A DNA stretch of 64,000 nt from a virus. The translations under genes were made by a program, and so were the position numbers. This document shows, piece after piece, positions 22,472-27,378 of the stretch. The number at the start of each line of letters is the position of its first letter. Position 1 is the stretch's first letter. The DNA lies in IMG/VR virus record IMGVR_UViG_3300047409_000726, positions 16,265 through 80,264 of that record; one strand, given 5' to 3'. Below the pieces are notes generated by a model, which saw only the letters and a list, made by a program, of their open reading frames with translations, had not been told where the DNA came from and did not search any database.

Positions 22472-22882
22472 GTGACCGGCTCCGGCGACTTCTCGATCGG
22501 CAGCAAAGTCTGGCCGGGCACCTCGAAGCTTCTCGAAGAGATGGGCGAGCTTCAACAGGTGCTCGGTAAGCTCATCGCCGTCGCGGGGAGCACCGAGCAT
22601 TGGGACGGTGACCTCAGACCGAGGCTCATCGAAGAGATCGGTGACGTCTCAGCAGCGCTTGGTTTTTTCATGGAGCAGAACTTCGTGGGCGATGAATCTT
22701 TGATCGCTAATAGAATCGTGGAGAAGCTTCGACTCTTTCGAAAGTGGCACACCGGGCAAGATCAACACATTCGATGCTCTGGGCGCAGTCCTATGGGAAA
22801 TCGATGCGAAAAATTCAGCGGTCATCTTGGCTCGTGTCACGCGAATGACGGCGAGCACGTCGAAGATTGGATGAACACATGA
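22472..22882 (+). CDS. MazG-like protein
   Basis: KLLEEMGELQQ...LIEEIGDV. Confidence 0.65.
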   Translation: MTGSGDFSIGSKVWPGTSKLLEEMGELQQVLGKLIAVAGSTEHWDGDLRPRLIEEIGDVSAALGFFMEQNFVGDESLIANRIVEKLRLFRKWHTGQDQHIRCSGRSPMGNRCEKFSGHLGSCHANDGEHVEDWMNT

Positions 22883-23328
22883 GACCGACTTGGCCCGAAA
22901 CTTGGATGTCGATCGCGCGTGTCATCGCCGAGCGATCCTACGACCCTCGCCTCAAGGTCGGCGCGATCATCGTCACGAGCGACAACACACAGATGCTCTC
23001 CGGCGGCTACAACGGTAACTACGCCGGTGGCCCACACGAGCACGAGTCGCCTGAGCCTGGGCAGAGTGGGTTTATCCACGCCGAGGTGAACGCGCTCGTG
23101 AAGCTCGACTTCAACAACCCGAAAGAGAAACACCTGTACCTCACGCATTCGCCGTGCAGAATGTGCGCAAAACTCATCATCAACGCCGGCATCAAGCGTG
23201 TGGTGTACGGCGAGGCGTACCGAGACCCGAGTGGTGTGAAGCTCTTGCAGGGGGTTGGCGTCGATACGTATTCGTTTGAAGATGCTGTTTGGGCTGCGAA
23301 GAATCCGGGTGCTGGGCCGTCTCGATGA
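22879..23328 (+). CDS. dCMP deaminase
   Basis: KVGA, GYNG, HAEVNA, SPCRMC. Confidence 0.9.
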   Translation: MRPTWPETWMSIARVIAERSYDPRLKVGAIIVTSDNTQMLSGGYNGNYAGGPHEHESPEPGQSGFIHAEVNALVKLDFNNPKEKHLYLTHSPCRMCAKLIINAGIKRVVYGEAYRDPSGVKLLQGVGVDTYSFEDAVWAAKNPGAGPSR

Positions 23329-23856
23329 AAATTCTTGTGCCGTTTTGGTCTTGTGACGTTCCCGTACCGGTGTGCTCGTCAAGATCACGTGACGGGTTGC
23401 GGTATGCGGTTGGACACTATTTTTGGAAGGACAGATTGAAATTTATTCACCATCGCATACCGTGTACACCGTGAAAATCCACCGCTCCACCGGCTACATT
23501 CACATCGATCTCTCCGGGGCCGAGGCTGCGGTGCTCTTCGAAGAGCTCGAGAACGTCCGCGGCGGATCGAAGCTCCCGAAGGTTCGTCAGGTGTGCGAGG
23601 GGCTCAAGGAGTCGCTCGGGCTCAATGCTCTGATGGCCGTGTCGGAGTCGTACAGGCGGAAATACGCCCCCAGGAAGACACTATCGCTCGTCGTCAACGA
23701 CGCGCCACGTGCCGATCACGCTCAACACGAAAAGCACGTGAGCCACGATCGCGGTGGCGATGGCGACGTGAGTACGAGGGACGCCACTGACGACCCACGC
23801 GAATGCGAGCGTGAGCCCTTGAACGATCGCTAGCCCCGTCAGGCGTGTGGCGCGGC

Positions 23857-24084
23857 TCATGCCTCAGGTGCTCCGGGGATCTTCCGGTTCGTGATTATTT
23901 TGAGCGCGATCGAGAGCAGCGGGCCCTCGATGTGTTTCGGTACCAAGATGCCGAGTTCGCGCTGTGCCCGATCAAGCGCAGCGCCGAATGTTAGGTTGTT
24001 GTCGGCCGTGAGAATGTCGATGACCCTCTCGAGCACCGGTGCGCAGTGTCGCGCGTCGCGTAGCGCTTCTTCGACGGCTGTCAC
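23857..24084 (-). CDS. Hypothetical protein, last gene of the RAMP operon
   Basis: GTG start overlaps the upstream TAG. Confidence 0.5.
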   Translation of the reverse strand: MTAVEEALRDARHCAPVLERVIDILTADNNLTFGAALDRAQRELGILVPKHIEGPLLSIALKIITNRKIPGAPEA

Positions 24085-24578
24085 TAGTCGTCCCCGTTGA
24101 ACAACACGACCTGCGCAGCCTGCGCGCAGGCGTCCTGAAGCGATTCGCCTTGAAAGAACCCCTTCACTTCGTAGCCGTCGTTGGAGAGGCTTGCCTCGAA
24201 CATCTTGATCTCTCGCTTGCCTTCGGCGTTGACGCCCATCTCGATGGATCGGACGCCGGCCTCGCGTGCACGGAGCCACCGGTCGAGCGCTTCGAAGATC
24301 CGCACAGCTCCCTCGCCCTCGGCTTGGCGTATCTCGGCTTCTCGTGACTCGACCTGCGCGCGTACGGGCACGATGGTGACCGTTTTCATACGGAAGATGA
24401 GCTTACACGCTAGGTCGAGGTAGGCGCTCTCAGGGTTCGCTCGAACGTATAGCTCGTCGATCTCGTTGATGGTGTCGCGGAGCGCTTCTGCGAGCTCGTG
24501 AATCACGTCCTCGGACGTCATGGGAGCGGGGCGAGGGGGCGAGGAGTGTTTCGAGCGGGTAAGCGGGGCGTCGTTCAT
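24084..24578 (-). CDS. Hypothetical protein downstream of the pentamer tracts
   Basis: 164-aa ORF with RBS AAAGGA. Confidence 0.65.
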   Translation of the reverse strand: MNDAPLTRSKHSSPPRPAPMTSEDVIHELAEALRDTINEIDELYVRANPESAYLDLACKLIFRMKTVTIVPVRAQVESREAEIRQAEGEGAVRIFEALDRWLRAREAGVRSIEMGVNAEGKREIKMFEASLSNDGYEVKGFFQGESLQDACAQAAQVVLFNGDD

Positions 24579-24604
24579 CTTGGGTTCCTTTGTGTGTAGA
24601 AACG

Positions 24605-24786
24605 GTCCTTTGGTTTGCTCGGCTGTGCGCAGCGATGCGTAGCCCGGCGGCGCGCCGATTCGGGTGGCTTTGCTGAGCGCTGCTTTGTTGAGCGGTGCGT
24701 GGCGCTGCGGTGCCGAGACTTGCCGAGCATTGCTTTACAACGCGACGTTGCGCCATGCTGAGCACCGTACCGCTCAGCGGAGTTTG
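24605..24786 (-). ncRNA. Putative guide RNA, tract A (34 phased 5-nt units plus handle)
   Basis: G at every fifth + strand base 24617-24782 (33/34), GC in 26/34; handle gtcctttggtttgc. Confidence 0.75.
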
Positions 24787-24830
24787 TTGGGTTTGAAAAA
24801 AAGCTGTTCGGCACGGGGTTCGTTGAAAGT

Positions 24831-24947
24831 GTCCTTTGGTTTGCTTGGCAGTGCGTCACGACGCGGGGCAGGGTCGCGCGACGATCCGCTTCCCGGTGCA
24901 CTGATCTGCTTGACCGTGCTGGGCACAGCGCCGCACTGCGATGAGGG
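24831..24947 (-). ncRNA. Putative guide RNA, tract B (21 units plus handle)
   Basis: GC in 14/21 phased positions from 24843; same handle as A. Confidence 0.72.
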
Positions 24948-24987
24948 TTTTGAAAAAGTTGTTTGTGCGCGGGTTGTGCGAAAAGTG

Positions 24988-25074
24988 TGACTTTGATTTG
25001 CTGGGCTGAGCACGACTGAGCTTCGCGTCGCGTCGCTGGGCCGGGTTTCGCGAGGCGCTGCGTCGCTGGGTTTC
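24988..25074 (-). ncRNA. Putative guide RNA, tract C (15 units plus handle)
   Basis: GC in 12/15 phased positions from 25000; handle tgactttgatttgc. Confidence 0.72.
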
Positions 25075-25078
25075 TTTT

Positions 25079-25723
25079 CTAGGCCACCTTCCGTTTCATC
25101 GCAGCCGTCCCGTCGACGCAGTCCCATGCGACGACGTGGAAGAGCCCAAACGGCCCGCGCTTCTCAGGGCGGAAGGCGCCGATACCTAGTTGTTCTCCGG
25201 CCTCGGTGAGGAGCTGTCTCACGAACGCCGGATCCATGAGGTTCTCGTTGATGCGGATCGTGCACTTCAACGTCCAGCGTTCGATGCGTGGACGGTGAGC
25301 GAGCAGTGCGCCTTTCGTGCTTGGGTTGACGACCCGGCGACTGTCCACCTCGTAGGTCGTGATGCGCGTTTTCCGGTCTTCATTGTAGAGCGGTGCAAGC
25401 TCGTCGAGAACGAGCACCGCGGCCGGCACGCGATACTTCATCGACTTGCGGGTGCCCTTCTCCTTGTGGTTGCCGCCGGCTTCGACGATCGCGCGTTGTA
25501 CACCGGTGCCAGGGAACACGAGTGGGGAGTCGAGCTTCCCGTTCTCGCGGTAGCAGCTCTTCTCGGCGATCTCTCGCGGAGTGAGTTGCTTGACGGCTGT
25601 GATAGATGGCCGAGTGCCTGGGCCACTGCCGCCGGGTACGTTTTCGGCTGCTTCTGTTCCAAACGCCGCCATAAGTAGCGGCATCGTTCCTTCGATCCAA
25701 GTTTCTGTGTATTGAAAAGACAC
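25079..25723 (-). CDS. Stand-alone RAMP/Cas7-like RNA-binding protein
   Basis: N-terminal strand IEGTMPLL; FPGTGVQRAI resembling RAMP IPGSSLKGAL; C-terminal Gly-rich loop LGIGAFRPEKRGPFG; RBS AAAGGAG 7 nt before GTG. Confidence 0.75.
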   Translation of the reverse strand: MSFQYTETWIEGTMPLLMAAFGTEAAENVPGGSGPGTRPSITAVKQLTPREIAEKSCYRENGKLDSPLVFPGTGVQRAIVEAGGNHKEKGTRKSMKYRVPAAVLVLDELAPLYNEDRKTRITTYEVDSRRVVNPSTKGALLAHRPRIERWTLKCTIRINENLMDPAFVRQLLTEAGEQLGIGAFRPEKRGPFGLFHVVAWDCVDGTAAMKRKVA

Positions 25724-25747
25724 TGAGATTCTCCTTTGGTTGAAAAT

Positions 25748-25889
25748 GAGCTTTGGTTTGCGCGGCTGAGCGTGGCGATGCGGTGCGCTGCGAGGCGTAG
25801 ATCTGCTGAGGGCCGCTCTGTTGTGCGGGGGCGCGCTAGGCGGGGCGGCGATATGCTTTGCCGGGGCCTGCCCTGCGGCGCGGTGAATT
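25748..25889 (-). ncRNA. Putative guide RNA, tract D (26 units plus handle); variable positions spell a rhomboid motif
   Basis: G at 26/26 phased positions 25760-25885, GC in 19; handle gagctttggtttgc. Confidence 0.78.
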
Positions 25890-26434
25890 TAGGTGAACGA
25901 CCTTCCTCTCTCGCCGATGGCGTTCGCGAAGAGTGCAGCAACGACGCCGACGAACAGGCCGCCGATGTGGGCACCGACACTGACGTCGCCACCGTTGCCG
26001 GTTAGTGCCTGCCAAGTGCTGACAGCGCAAAAGGCGAAAGCGAATCCGATGAATCGGCGGTCGACCGCTACGGAGTACGTGACCAGGCCGCAGACAGCCC
26101 CGGAGGCGCCTACCATCGGGATTGAAGAGCCTGAAGCTACGATAATGTGGAGAGCGGCTCCGGCGACCGCTGCGAGGGCGTAGAGGCAGAGGAACCGAGC
26201 GCCCCCGATGACCCTCTCGACCAGGCTGCCGAAAACGGCCAAAAAGGCCATGTTACAGCCCAGGTGAACGAGGGTCCTAGGGTCGTGCAGGAAGGAGTAG
26301 GTGAGGAGCGAGCCCAGGCCCGGATGGGCCGGAACTAGGCCGAATTTCTCGCAGACCGGCATCCCGCCACTCGAGAGCTCGAGGGCGTAAACGGCCGCGT
26401 TCAGCGTCACGAGAAGGAGGGTCACGAGGGGCAT
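25889..26434 (-). CDS. Rhomboid intramembrane serine protease
   Basis: TYSFLH, HLGCNM, catalytic GASG, AHIGG; multiple TM segments. Confidence 0.92.
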   Translation of the reverse strand: MPLVTLLLVTLNAAVYALELSSGGMPVCEKFGLVPAHPGLGSLLTYSFLHDPRTLVHLGCNMAFLAVFGSLVERVIGGARFLCLYALAAVAGAALHIIVASGSSIPMVGASGAVCGLVTYSVAVDRRFIGFAFAFCAVSTWQALTGNGGDVSVGAHIGGLFVGVVAALFANAIGERGRSFT

Positions 26435-26458
26435 ATGGGGTAGACGGATACCATACGA

Positions 26459-26521
26459 GGGTATTCAAGGTCAATCATTCTTTAGACGGCTGTTGACGTT
26501 GAATACCCGGCGTGGTAGGGT
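26459..26521. promoter_or_regulatory. Divergent sigma70-like promoter pair built on a 16-bp inverted repeat
   Basis: gggtattcaaggtcaa (26459-26474) and ttgacgttgaataccc (26493-26508); + strand TTGACG-N17-TAGGGT. Confidence 0.6.
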
Positions 26522-26946
26522 CCGTCTGCTCTGCCATGACCTTCACAGGAGACCCAATGCCCAAACGCCCAAACGGTCGCTATTCGGGCGTCGAACCGAC
26601 CGGCACCCCCGCGGCGGTCGACCGGGCGCTCAAGAAGAACTCGAGGGACGACATGCGGGGCTACGACACGGACGCCCACGCTATCGCGAAGGTGCTCGTT
26701 CGCCACTACGGCGACGAGGCCGATGCGGTGCTCAAGCGCACGTTGGAGCTCCTTGGGGACGCACGGAGAACGAAGCGATGACCGACCCACGCAAGCCTCA
26801 AACCAAAGACGGCGCCGTGGCCTTCGTGTCCGCCGTGCTCCGAAACGAGCCAGCGCTTCAGTCGCCGGACTTCAAGGTCGCGATGGATCTCAGCGAGTGT
26901 TTCGACATTCGCGCGAAGGACTTACTCGAGTACCGAAAGGGGATGG

Positions 26947-27378
26947 TTGAAAATGGCCGCTGAAGAAAAACACACGTTCTCTTGCATAGGCATCACCAAG
27001 CAGCTCGAGGCGCTCACGAAACTCGCCGGCATCGGGCGGGGCATCGTGGTCACCGAGGAATTAGCTAGCAAGTTGGCTGACCGGCGCAATCGACGCGAAA
27101 AAATGGATCTCATCATCGACGAGCTTTGGCGCCGGTACAAGTACGCGGCAGATCCAGTGATCGACGGCGCCTGCCTGTTCGTCGTAACGCTCGCCCAAGG
27201 GTTTGGTATTCGGTGCCGTTTCACGATGGCACGCTACGGCCGAGCAAGTTGGACCCTCTTCGTCGCGTACGAAAACGAAGAGGGGCTCTGGCAAAACATC
27301 AACGTGCTTCGACAGGAAACAGCTCAGGTGCCAAACGAGCTCGTGATGGGGCCGATCCCAGGAGACGACGTTACATGA
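26947..27378 (+). CDS. Probable catalytically dead paralog of the transglutaminase-like protease
   Basis: RREK..IIDE..YAADPV, FGI, AYENEEGLW align with RRQK..ILDE..YIADPV, IGI, AFEDDLGEW of 48439..50082. Confidence 0.6.
   Translation: MKMAAEEKHTFSCIGITKQLEALTKLAGIGRGIVVTEELASKLADRRNRREKMDLIIDELWRRYKYAADPVIDGACLFVVTLAQGFGIRCRFTMARYGRASWTLFVAYENEEGLWQNINVLRQETAQVPNELVMGPIPGDDVT

What the first reader, a model, noticed from the sequence alone, without database searches (positions are those of the whole stretch)
25760..25889. Variable dinucleotides of tract D spell the rhomboid active-site motif when every third target base is skipped
Seen: the + strand NN series is CG GA TG AT GT CT AG TA CT GA CC CT GT GG GC AG GG GC AT TT GG CT CT GC GT TT. 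Read as codon positions 1-2, the last 16 give P-L-V-G-A-(S/R)-G-A-(I/M)-(F/L)-G-L-L-A-V-(F/L). Established: VGASGAIFGL is the rhomboid catalytic GxSG consensus. A rhomboid gene ends at the edge of this tract. Inference: the guide pairs NN-gap-NN with the sense strand or mRNA of a rhomboid gene, with the gap on the wobble base, so most synonymous changes would not allow escape. This is internal evidence for both the code and the target class. The first 10 dinucleotides do not fit the motif as clearly.
Basis: partly seen in the sequence, partly recalled or inferred. Interest (0 to 1): 0.95.

Follow-up and report, generated by a model that had tools for sequence, protein, structure and literature searches.

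The report
Phage VIPR guide aimed at rhomboids
The 130-base tract is one guide RNA of a phage VIPR system, a CRISPR-like DNA silencer described in 2026 that reads two target bases and skips the third.

Summary

The locus is a VIPR system. It has a solo Cas7-like RAMP gene (vipr, 25079-25723, minus strand) and four pentanucleotide-repeat guide RNAs (vrRNAs) on the same strand. One lies upstream (D) and three downstream (C, B, A), as in the characterised phage phiSUSP1. Three 2026 bioRxiv preprints establish that vrRNA dinucleotides pair with DNA while skipping one base, usually the codon wobble.

With a one-base skip only, units 11-25 of D match 30 of 30 bases of the PLVGASGAIFGLLAV codons in the rhomboid gene of one IMG/VR phage (109 kb, no vipr). 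Its catalytic Ser is TCC where the guide reads AG. Shuffled guides reach at most 25/32, and skips of 0, 2 or 3 give nothing.

The ten units nearest the tail match nothing found. No expression data exist.

Verdict: a real new member of a known kind, with a new target class (rival phages' rhomboid genes).

The parts
25760..25889 (-). vrRNA D repeat tract: 26 pentamers. In RNA sense each unit is 5'-NN-[C/A]-G-C-3'; on the + strand it reads G-C-[G/T]-N-N.
Evidence: It lies on the same strand as vipr and 5' of a conserved tail, as in phiSUSP1.
25810..25884 (-). Units 11-25 of tract D, the rhomboid-directed part of the guide (codons for PLVGASGAIFGLLAV).
   Evidence: 30/30 informative bases match the rhomboid gene of IMGVR_UViG_3300032893_000012 with a one-base skip. 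Shuffled guides reach at most 25/32.
25760..25809 (-). Units 1-10 of tract D (nearest the tail): no target found.
   Evidence: No exact match of units 1-10 in IMG/VR. No match of a pattern spanning the junction (units 7-18) in the viral, metagenome or genome collections. Chance-level scores against the four rhomboid genes.
25724..25759 (-). Conserved 3' tail core of vrRNA D (GCAAACCAAAG...), running into the ribosome-binding site of vipr.
   Evidence: The core GCAAA(C/T)CAAAG follows all four tracts and is conserved in the sister phage while the guides differ.
25079..25723 (-). vipr: 214-aa solo RAMP (Cas7/Csm3-like) with G-loop GIGAFRPEKRGPFG.
   Evidence: AF2 pLDDT 82.5. Foldseek top hits are Csm3/Cas7 chains, E about 2e-7. 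hhalign to the phiSUSP1 protein ALH47069, inferred to be its Vipr, gives probability 96.3%, E 1.6e-9 over 184 columns. phrog_4652. Homologues in 37 IMG/VR contigs, nearly all flanked by period-5 tracts.
25000..25074 (-). vrRNA C repeat tract (about 15 units).
   Evidence: No target found.
24953..24999 (-). Tail and linker of vrRNA C, ending in a T-run.
   Evidence: homologous to the B-A linker.
24843..24942 (-). vrRNA B repeat tract (about 20 units).
   Evidence: No target found.
24797..24842 (-). Tail and linker of vrRNA B, ending in a T-run.
24617..24786 (-). vrRNA A repeat tract (about 34 units). It is nearly identical in the sister phage apart from a one-unit (5-nt) indel.
   Evidence: No target found.
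24579..24616 (-). Tail of vrRNA A, running into the ribosome-binding site of the 164-aa ORF.
25889..26434 (-). The phage's own rhomboid protease gene, immediately upstream of vrRNA D.
   Evidence: PF01694, E 4e-19.
26072..26119 (-). Site in the phage's own rhomboid that is homologous to the guide (PMVGASGAVCGLVTYS). It matches 22/32, and its catalytic Ser codon is TCC where the guide reads AG.
   Evidence: 22/32 lies within the shuffled-guide range (maximum 22-23).
24084..24578 (-). 164-aa ORF downstream of the array; a candidate accessory (vap) gene of unknown family.
   Evidence: No Pfam, PADLOC or PHROG family. 89.6% identical copy downstream of the array in the sister phage. Absent from the other 35 vipr loci.

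Best explanation
The tract is the guide portion of vrRNA D, one of four guide RNAs of a VIPR (Viral Interference Programmable Repeat) system in a complete 80-kb soil phage. The RNAs are transcribed from the minus strand together with the vipr gene. By the published mechanism, one Vipr protomer binds each pentamer, sequesters the constant triplet (here [C/A]-G-C rather than G-G-Y) and presents the two variable bases. The resulting filament binds double-stranded DNA by pairing two bases and skipping one. In coding targets the skipped base falls on the wobble position, and binding silences transcription. Units 11-25 of vrRNA D are antisense to the codons for PLVGASGAIFGLLAV, the catalytic-serine helix of a small phage rhomboid protease. 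The most likely natural targets are the rhomboid alleles of related competing phages. The phage's own allele, which sits next to the guide, is spared because it differs at 10 of 32 read positions, including a TCC instead of an AGY serine codon. Shown here: the anatomy, the homology of the protein, the code-specific natural match and the self-mismatch. Taken from the literature: filament assembly, DNA binding and silencing. Inferred: that these particular phages meet in one host, and that silencing their rhomboid matters to them.
For: Protein: AF2 model with pLDDT 82.5. Foldseek hits to Csm3/Cas7 at E about 2e-7. The profile of the window's family hits a 195-aa ORF of phiSUSP1 (E 5.7e-9); its position (vipr, then a second gene, with GGT-NN repeat tracts in both flanking intergenic regions) matches the preprint's description of the SUSP1 VIPR locus, and its residues C173, D177, W178, R179 and H17 carry the numbers the cryo-EM preprint names. 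hhalign probability is 96.3%.

Linkage: 37 IMG/VR loci encode homologues, and nearly all have period-5 G-G-Y-N-N tracts beside the gene on the coding strand.

Architecture: one vrRNA upstream and three downstream, each a tract followed by a conserved tail, on the strand of vipr. phiSUSP1 has the same layout.

Guide behaviour: between the window and its sister phage, vipr is about 97% identical, but guides D, C and B are replaced while the tails are kept.

Code and target: 30/30 bases in the rhomboid gene of G001. 27/32 and 26/32 in G002 and G003, and 22/32 in the phage's own gene. Shuffled-guide maxima are 23-25 of 32. Only skip 1 scores above null. All four genes are PF01694 rhomboids. G001 and G002 are complete genomes that lack vipr and share about 45 ORFs with this phage at about 50% identity.

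Independent support: the sister phage's upstream guide has 9 perfect units (18/18 bases, skip 1 only, wobble phase) on the codons for LRPRLLGF of the G002 rhomboid, just downstream of the same site.

Protein-RNA covariation: the two SUSP1 residues that read G1 (H17, D177) are His and Asp in the loci whose repeats keep G1 (one has Asn for the His), and both are replaced in the three loci (this window, its sister, L028) whose repeats have lost G1. R138 and G2 are kept everywhere.

Literature.
Against: No expression or processing data exist for these RNAs. Only 15 of 26 units match; full-length identity to the best target is 36/52 (69%), below the 80% used in the discovery preprint. A six-unit, 18-bp footprint is nonetheless treated as functional in 10.64898/2026.10.15.759431. 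The ten units nearest the tail have no match anywhere searched. The tracts have 15-34 units, against the 9-16 reported for the SUSP1 clade. The matched peptide is the most conserved motif of the rhomboid family, so the match fixes the target class better than the target organism. The hosts of the four phages are unknown, so co-infection is not shown. No vap gene could be recognised.
Confidence: 0.82

Rival explanations
1. The guide targets the rhomboid gene of the bacterial host, not of rival phages. The phage would silence the host protease and supply its own guide-resistant copy.
For: The matched peptide is the family consensus, so many cellular rhomboids could match. A 12-unit sub-pattern hits one bacterial MAG (Planctomycetales) in 185,579 species genomes. 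The phage carries a recoded rhomboid next to the guide.
Against: That single bacterial hit matches 13 units, sits in a low-GC giant ORF and scores 32/52 overall. The best and longest match (15 units) is in the phage orthologue of the neighbouring gene. The host is unknown, so the relevant genome could not be examined. Published natural targets are overwhelmingly other mobile elements.
Confidence: 0.1
2. vrRNA D regulates the phage's own rhomboid or its own operon by partial pairing with the adjacent gene.
For: The guide and a rhomboid gene are adjacent, probably on one transcript. The best genome-wide 16-unit match in the phage's own genome is its rhomboid site.
Against: That match is 22/32, equal to the best shuffled guides. 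It breaks at the catalytic Ser codon and five further units. The discovery preprint found no self-targets at 80% or above and reports that disturbing NN pairing abolishes silencing.
Confidence: 0.05
3. The resemblance to the rhomboid motif is chance: GC-rich dinucleotides read as codons naturally give Gly/Ala/Pro/Leu/Val-rich strings.
For: The dinucleotides are GC-rich, and the decoded peptide consists of common residues. Guides A-C decode to nothing recognisable.
Against: An exact 30-base in-frame match lies in a gene orthologous to the neighbour. Shuffles never exceed 25/32. The match is specific to skip 1. Three control 12-unit patterns from tracts A-C give no IMG/VR hit. A second guide from the sister phage lands in the same gene.
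Confidence: 0.02

Closest known systems
Type II VIPR system of Escherichia phage phiSUSP1 (KT454805; vipr inferred to be ALH47069). bioRxiv 10.64898/2026.04.26.720920, 10.64898/2026.04.26.720927, 10.64898/2026.10.15.759431.
   Same: A solo RAMP protein of about 200 aa with homologous G-loop and thumb (hhalign 96.3%). It is phage-encoded. The guides are tandem pentamers with a constant triplet and variable NN, on the strand of vipr, each followed by a conserved 3' tail, with one upstream and three downstream. The target is read with a one-base skip on the wobble position, and the phage does not target itself.
   Different: Protein identity is only about 20%. The constant triplet is [C/A]-G-C rather than G-G-Y, which corresponds to the 'YNNNG' variant mentioned in the preprint's Methods; the two G1-reading residues are replaced (A19, A183). 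The tracts have 15-34 units rather than 9-16. No gene sits between vipr and the downstream array, and no vap was recognised. No pseudoknot or other consensus fold was predicted for the tail. The target is a rhomboid protease gene rather than a satellite recombinase or a prophage regulator.
Cas7/Csm3 backbone of class 1 CRISPR effectors (for example PDB 6IFN, 6XN3, 9G9B)
   Same: The fold is shared (Foldseek E about 2e-7, TM about 0.5-0.57). One protomer binds each repeat of the guide, and a thumb breaks the duplex periodically.
   Different: No CRISPR array and no second RAMP copy in the genome; a dedicated cas-gene search was not run. The period is 5 nt with 2 read bases, rather than 6 nt with 5 read bases. 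The target period (3) differs from the guide period (5).
TIGR-Tas (tandem interspaced guide RNA) systems
   Same: Arrays of compact guide RNAs outside CRISPR, also found in phages, that direct a small protein to DNA.
   Different: Tas proteins have a Nop domain and are not RAMPs. TIGR guides are two contiguous spacers per repeat unit, not dinucleotides interleaved with a scaffold. This comparison rests on my own knowledge and the abstract; it was not tested here.

Membership tests
VIPR system | Vipr protein: a stand-alone RAMP (RRM core, glycine-rich loop, thumb) homologous to characterised Vipr proteins | tested here: met
   AF2 and Foldseek place it with Csm3/Cas7. hhalign to the inferred phiSUSP1 Vipr gives probability 96.3%, E 1.6e-9, with the G-loop aligned. 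The A1 profile finds that phiSUSP1 gene at E 5.7e-9.
VIPR system | vrRNAs: tandem pentanucleotide repeats (at least 4 units) with a conserved triplet and hypervariable NN, flanking vipr on its strand | tested here: met
   Four tracts of 15-34 units. G2 is 0.87 and Y3 is 0.94 conserved, while G1 is not; this is the published 'YNNNG' variant. NN are hypervariable between sister phages.
VIPR system | Conserved 3' tail after each repeat tract | tested here: met
   GCAAA(C/T)CAAAG... follows all four tracts and is kept in the sister phage. Its fold is not established: RNAalifold predicts no pairs.
VIPR system | Natural targets obey the 1-nt skip rule, with the skip on the codon wobble position, and there is no self-target | tested here: met
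   Guide D scores 30/30 at skip 1 only. The sister phage's guide scores 18/18 at skip 1 only. Apart from each tract's trivial match to itself, no match in the phage's own genome exceeds the shuffles. Guides A-C remain without targets.
VIPR system | vrRNAs are expressed, processed and bound by Vipr | not testable with these tools
   No RNA run holds the stretch.
VIPR system | Accessory vap gene (typical, not universal) | tested here: inconclusive
   The 164-aa ORF downstream is conserved in the sister phage but matches no family. The type (I-VII) cannot be assigned because the preprint's supplementary data are not held.
CRISPR-Cas class 1 | CRISPR repeat-spacer array and further cas genes beside the RAMP | tested here: not met
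   No CRISPR-like array in the tandem-repeat scan of the window. A single RAMP copy in the complete 80-kb phage genome. The immediate neighbours are a rhomboid gene and unknown ORFs. A dedicated cas-gene search was not run.

The most novel reading that the evidence does not exclude
The rhomboid gene and vrRNA D form a linked 'silence-and-replace' module. The guide shuts off the rhomboid alleles of co-infecting relatives, or of the host, at their least mutable codons, while the phage's own allele next to the guide has been recoded to be immune (Ser AGY to TCC, plus the changes that turn AIFGLLAV into AVCGLVTY). Rapid turnover of this gene segment among relatives would then be an arms race driven by VIPR guides. 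Supporting observations: the N-terminal part of the sister phage's rhomboid (roughly the first 95 residues, by eye) is nearly identical while the rest diverges, for 72% identity overall; the Ser codon family alternates among four phages; and two sister phages aim guides at adjacent sites of the same gene.
Probability: 0.2. Interest if true: 0.65.

Novelty: new member of a known kind. Interest (0 to 1): 0.45.

Why it matters
The kind of system and its gapped code are already public (three bioRxiv preprints, April-October 2026), so the finding does not open a new mechanism. It does three smaller things.

First, it extends the natural-target picture from E. coli and Pseudomonas phages to an uncultured soil phage lineage and to a new target class: the catalytic helix of a phage-borne rhomboid protease. 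This is a clean natural example of a guide placed on codons that cannot change without loss of function.

Second, it offers a natural experiment on specificity. The variant repeat lacking G1 occurs only in the three loci whose Vipr has replaced both residues that read G1 in the cryo-EM structure. This supports the published contact map and suggests how scaffold specificity evolves.

Third, the phage's own allele escapes through one of the few synonymous routes open against a wobble-skipping guide, a switch of serine codon family.

Tried and rejected

Exact patterns for units 1-10 (viral contigs only) and for the junction units 7-18 (viral, metagenome and genome collections) found nothing. A target matching all 26 units was therefore not found.

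12-unit patterns from tracts A, B and C found nothing in IMG/VR. Local scans of four phage genomes with A-C at skips 0-3 stayed at shuffle level.

tblastn of the Vipr protein against 50,697 phage records found nothing at E 0.01; the link to phiSUSP1 needed a profile.

Relatives cannot be drawn for a virus record, so the host could not be approached that way.

No RNA holder was listed among the sequencing runs, and read laying was not used.

Rfam found no ribozyme or known RNA in 23500-27000. The promoter and terminator scan gave nothing above shuffles. RNAalifold on the four tails predicted no pairs.

Alternative registers of the tract were tried as controls. Registers falling on the constant GC give high but meaningless scores on GC-periodic DNA.

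Before the literature search I considered a TRAP-like ring protein site or a nucleoprotein assembly signal. I dropped these once the RAMP fold and the VIPR papers accounted for the periodicity.

The VIPR type (I-VII) could not be assigned.

Full report
**1. The observation**

The + strand of 25760-25889 divides without slippage into 26 pentamers. Read as the first two bases of codons, the last 16 spell P-L-V-G-A-(S/R)-G-A-(I/M)-(F/L)-G-L-L-A-V-(F/L). The rhomboid gene (PF01694, E 4e-19; 25889-26434, minus strand) ends at the edge of the tract, and its stop codon overlaps the last unit. Three more tracts of the same kind lie at about 24617-24786 (A), 24843-24942 (B) and 25000-25074 (C). On the + strand each is preceded by the same motif, the complement of GCAAA(C/T)CAAAG.

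**2. What the locus is**

A 214-aa ORF (25079-25723, minus strand) lies between tracts C and D. It has no Pfam family but matches phrog_4652. Its homologues are metagenomic and viral.

- Linkage: in 37 IMG/VR loci that encode a homologue, nearly every one has period-5 tracts directly beside the gene, often as arrays of up to 13. Protein and tracts therefore form one conserved phage module.
- Fold: an AlphaFold model from the family alignment (pLDDT 82.5) matches Csm3/Cas7 backbone subunits of type III and VII CRISPR effectors (Foldseek E about 2e-7).
- Literature: a search then showed that this module was described in 2026 as VIPR, the Viral Interference Programmable Repeat system. A solo RAMP, Vipr, polymerises on vrRNAs made of alternating G-G-Y and NN. 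The NN pair with double-stranded DNA while one target base is skipped, generally the codon wobble base, and binding silences transcription (10.64898/2026.04.26.720920; cryo-EM in 10.64898/2026.04.26.720927; biology in 10.64898/2026.10.15.759431).
- Link to the characterised system: the profile of the window's family finds one ORF in phage phiSUSP1 (KT454805, 28474-29061; E 5.7e-9). I take this to be its vipr, because the locus layout fits the preprint's description and the residue numbers named in the cryo-EM preprint fall on the right residues. hhalign gives 96.3% probability over 184 columns, with the G-loops aligned.
- Layout: in phiSUSP1 the repeat tracts lie on the coding strand of vipr, one upstream and three downstream, each followed by a tail. 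The window has the same layout on its minus strand.
- Genome: it is a complete phage of 80,264 bp with terminal repeats and one vipr copy.

**3. Strand and register**

The vrRNAs are therefore minus-strand transcripts. In RNA sense the unit is [C/A]-G-C-N-N. G2 (0.87) and Y3 (0.94) are conserved and G1 is not, which corresponds to the 'YNNNG' variant noted in the preprint's Methods. The two variable bases are + strand positions 4-5, the register used in this finding.

**4. The target**

It lies in frame in a 182-aa rhomboid gene (PF01694, E 9e-17) of a complete 109-kb phage, G001. That gene is 40% identical to, and collinear with, the window's rhomboid. The only metagenome match was to a record of the same length (109,321 bp), presumably the same phage.
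- Whole-genome scans: I scanned four whole phage genomes with all four guides at skips 0-3, using shuffled-guide nulls. Apart from each tract matching itself at skip 3, only guide D at skip 1 stands out. It does so at the homologous rhomboid site in G001 (15 consecutive perfect units), G002 and G003.
- Scores over the 16 units: 30/32, 27/32 and 26/32, against null means of about 20.5 and maxima of 23-25.
- The phage's own rhomboid: 22/32, no better than the shuffles. Its catalytic serine is TCC where the guide reads AG, and the motif AIFGLLAV is AVCGLVTY.
- The candidate targets: G001 and G002 lack vipr and share about 45 ORFs with this phage at about 50% identity. They are relatives and plausible competitors.
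- Orientation: the guide is antisense to the coding strand.

**5. Independent support from the sister phage**

G003 has a vipr that is 99% identical in protein and about 97% in DNA. It keeps the tails and guide A but carries different guides at positions D, C and B. Its upstream guide has nine perfect units on the codons for LRPRLLGF of the G002 rhomboid. The match occurs at skip 1 only, in wobble phase, antisense to the coding strand, and a few codons downstream of the site read by the window's guide. Two sister phages thus aim the guide that sits beside their own rhomboid at neighbouring sites of the rival allele.

**6. Protein-RNA covariation**

In the SUSP1 structure, G1 is read by H17 and D177, and G2 by R138 and W178.

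- Across 29 aligned loci plus the window and phiSUSP1, the loci whose repeats keep G1 (frequency 0.6-0.96) have Asp at the D177 column and His at the H17 column, with one Asn exception for the His.
- The three loci whose repeats have lost G1 have both residues replaced. These are the window, its sister phage and the distant L028.
- The Arg aligned to R138 and base G2 are kept throughout.

This ties the variant scaffold to the protein in the way the published structure predicts.

**7. What remains open**

- Units 1-10 of D, next to the tail, match nothing. There is no exact hit for them in IMG/VR, none for a pattern spanning the junction in the viral, metagenome or genome collections, and only chance-level scores on the four rhomboids.
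- Full-length identity to G001 is 36/52 (69%). This is above the shuffle maximum of 32 but below the 80% cut-off of the discovery preprint. A six-unit footprint is, however, treated as functional in the satellite study.
- The tracts are longer than the 9-16 units reported for the SUSP1 clade. D may be one long RNA or two.
- Guides A-C have no identified target.
- No RNA data exist, and no tail fold was predicted.
- No vap gene was recognised. The 164-aa ORF downstream is a candidate, being 89.6% identical in the sister phage.
- The host is unknown. A host rhomboid target cannot be excluded, but the only bacterial match to a 12-unit sub-pattern is a consensus-motif hit in an unrelated low-GC MAG.

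**8. Comparison and verdict**

The locus passes every sequence-level membership test for VIPR. It differs from the characterised type II systems in scaffold motif, tract length, gene order and target. It is not a CRISPR system: the tandem-repeat scan shows no CRISPR-like array, and the phage has a single RAMP gene.

It reached them from sequence alone, and they coincide with work published in 2026. The finding is therefore real and correctly interpreted, but it is a new member of a known kind rather than a new mechanism.

Points that seem new and worth a specialist's attention:
- the rhomboid target;
- the recoded serine codon in the phage's own allele;
- the paired guides of the sister phages;
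- the G1 covariation.

Noticed in passing
window 25079-25723 (residues A19, A183); loci L001-L037: The two Vipr residues that read G1 of the G-G-Y scaffold in the SUSP1 cryo-EM structure (H17, D177) are His (one Asn) and Asp in all loci whose repeats keep G1. Both are replaced in the three loci (window, L001, L028) whose repeats have lost G1. The Arg aligned to R138 and base G2 are kept everywhere.
   Followed up: yes
L001:4884-4958 (sister phage G003) versus G002 66169-66213: The upstream guide of the sister phage has 9 perfect units (skip 1 only, wobble phase) on the codons for LRPRLLGF of the G002 rhomboid, a few codons downstream of the site read by the window's guide D.
   Followed up: yes
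window 26072-26119 and the homologous sites in G001, G002, G003: The catalytic serine codon alternates between the two codon families among four related phage rhomboids (TCC, AGT, TCG, AGC). This is one of the few synonymous escape routes from a guide that skips the wobble base. By eye, roughly the first 95 residues of the sister phage's rhomboid are nearly identical to the window's, but the remainder, around the guide sites, is divergent (72% overall).
   Followed up: partly
window 24560-25960 versus L001:4760-6200: Between two phages with about 97% identical vipr DNA, guides D, C and B are replaced while the tails are kept. Guide A is kept almost base for base, apart from an indel of exactly one 5-nt unit.
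   Followed up: partly
L057 (CAZVZR010000044.1, Planctomycetales MAG), whole 8-kb locus: One reading frame is open across the entire 8,000-base locus (over 2,600 aa). It contains a rhomboid domain with PLVGASGAIFGLL and a stretch that, by eye, resembles a lytic transglycosylase motif. It may be a giant multidomain membrane protein.
   Followed up: no
L016:4500-5690, L021:5570-6560, L011:5650-6365: Some vipr loci carry arrays of 10-13 successive period-5 tracts downstream of the gene, far more than the three or four seen here or in phiSUSP1.
   Followed up: no
window 24756-24779: A 22-base near-palindrome (8-bp stem) sits at the tail-distal (5' in RNA sense) end of tract A and is kept in the sister phage. 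It may be a processing or termination signal between vrRNA B and vrRNA A.
   Followed up: no
window 24084-24578 (-): A 164-aa ORF of no known family follows the guide array. An 89.6% identical copy lies downstream of the array in the sister phage, about 350 bases further away. It is a candidate accessory (vap) gene.
   Followed up: partly
window 22867-23328 (+): A dCMP/cytidine deaminase gene (PF00383, E 3e-22) lies about 750 bases beyond the 164-aa ORF at the end of the VIPR locus (about 1.3 kb from the guide array).
   Followed up: no
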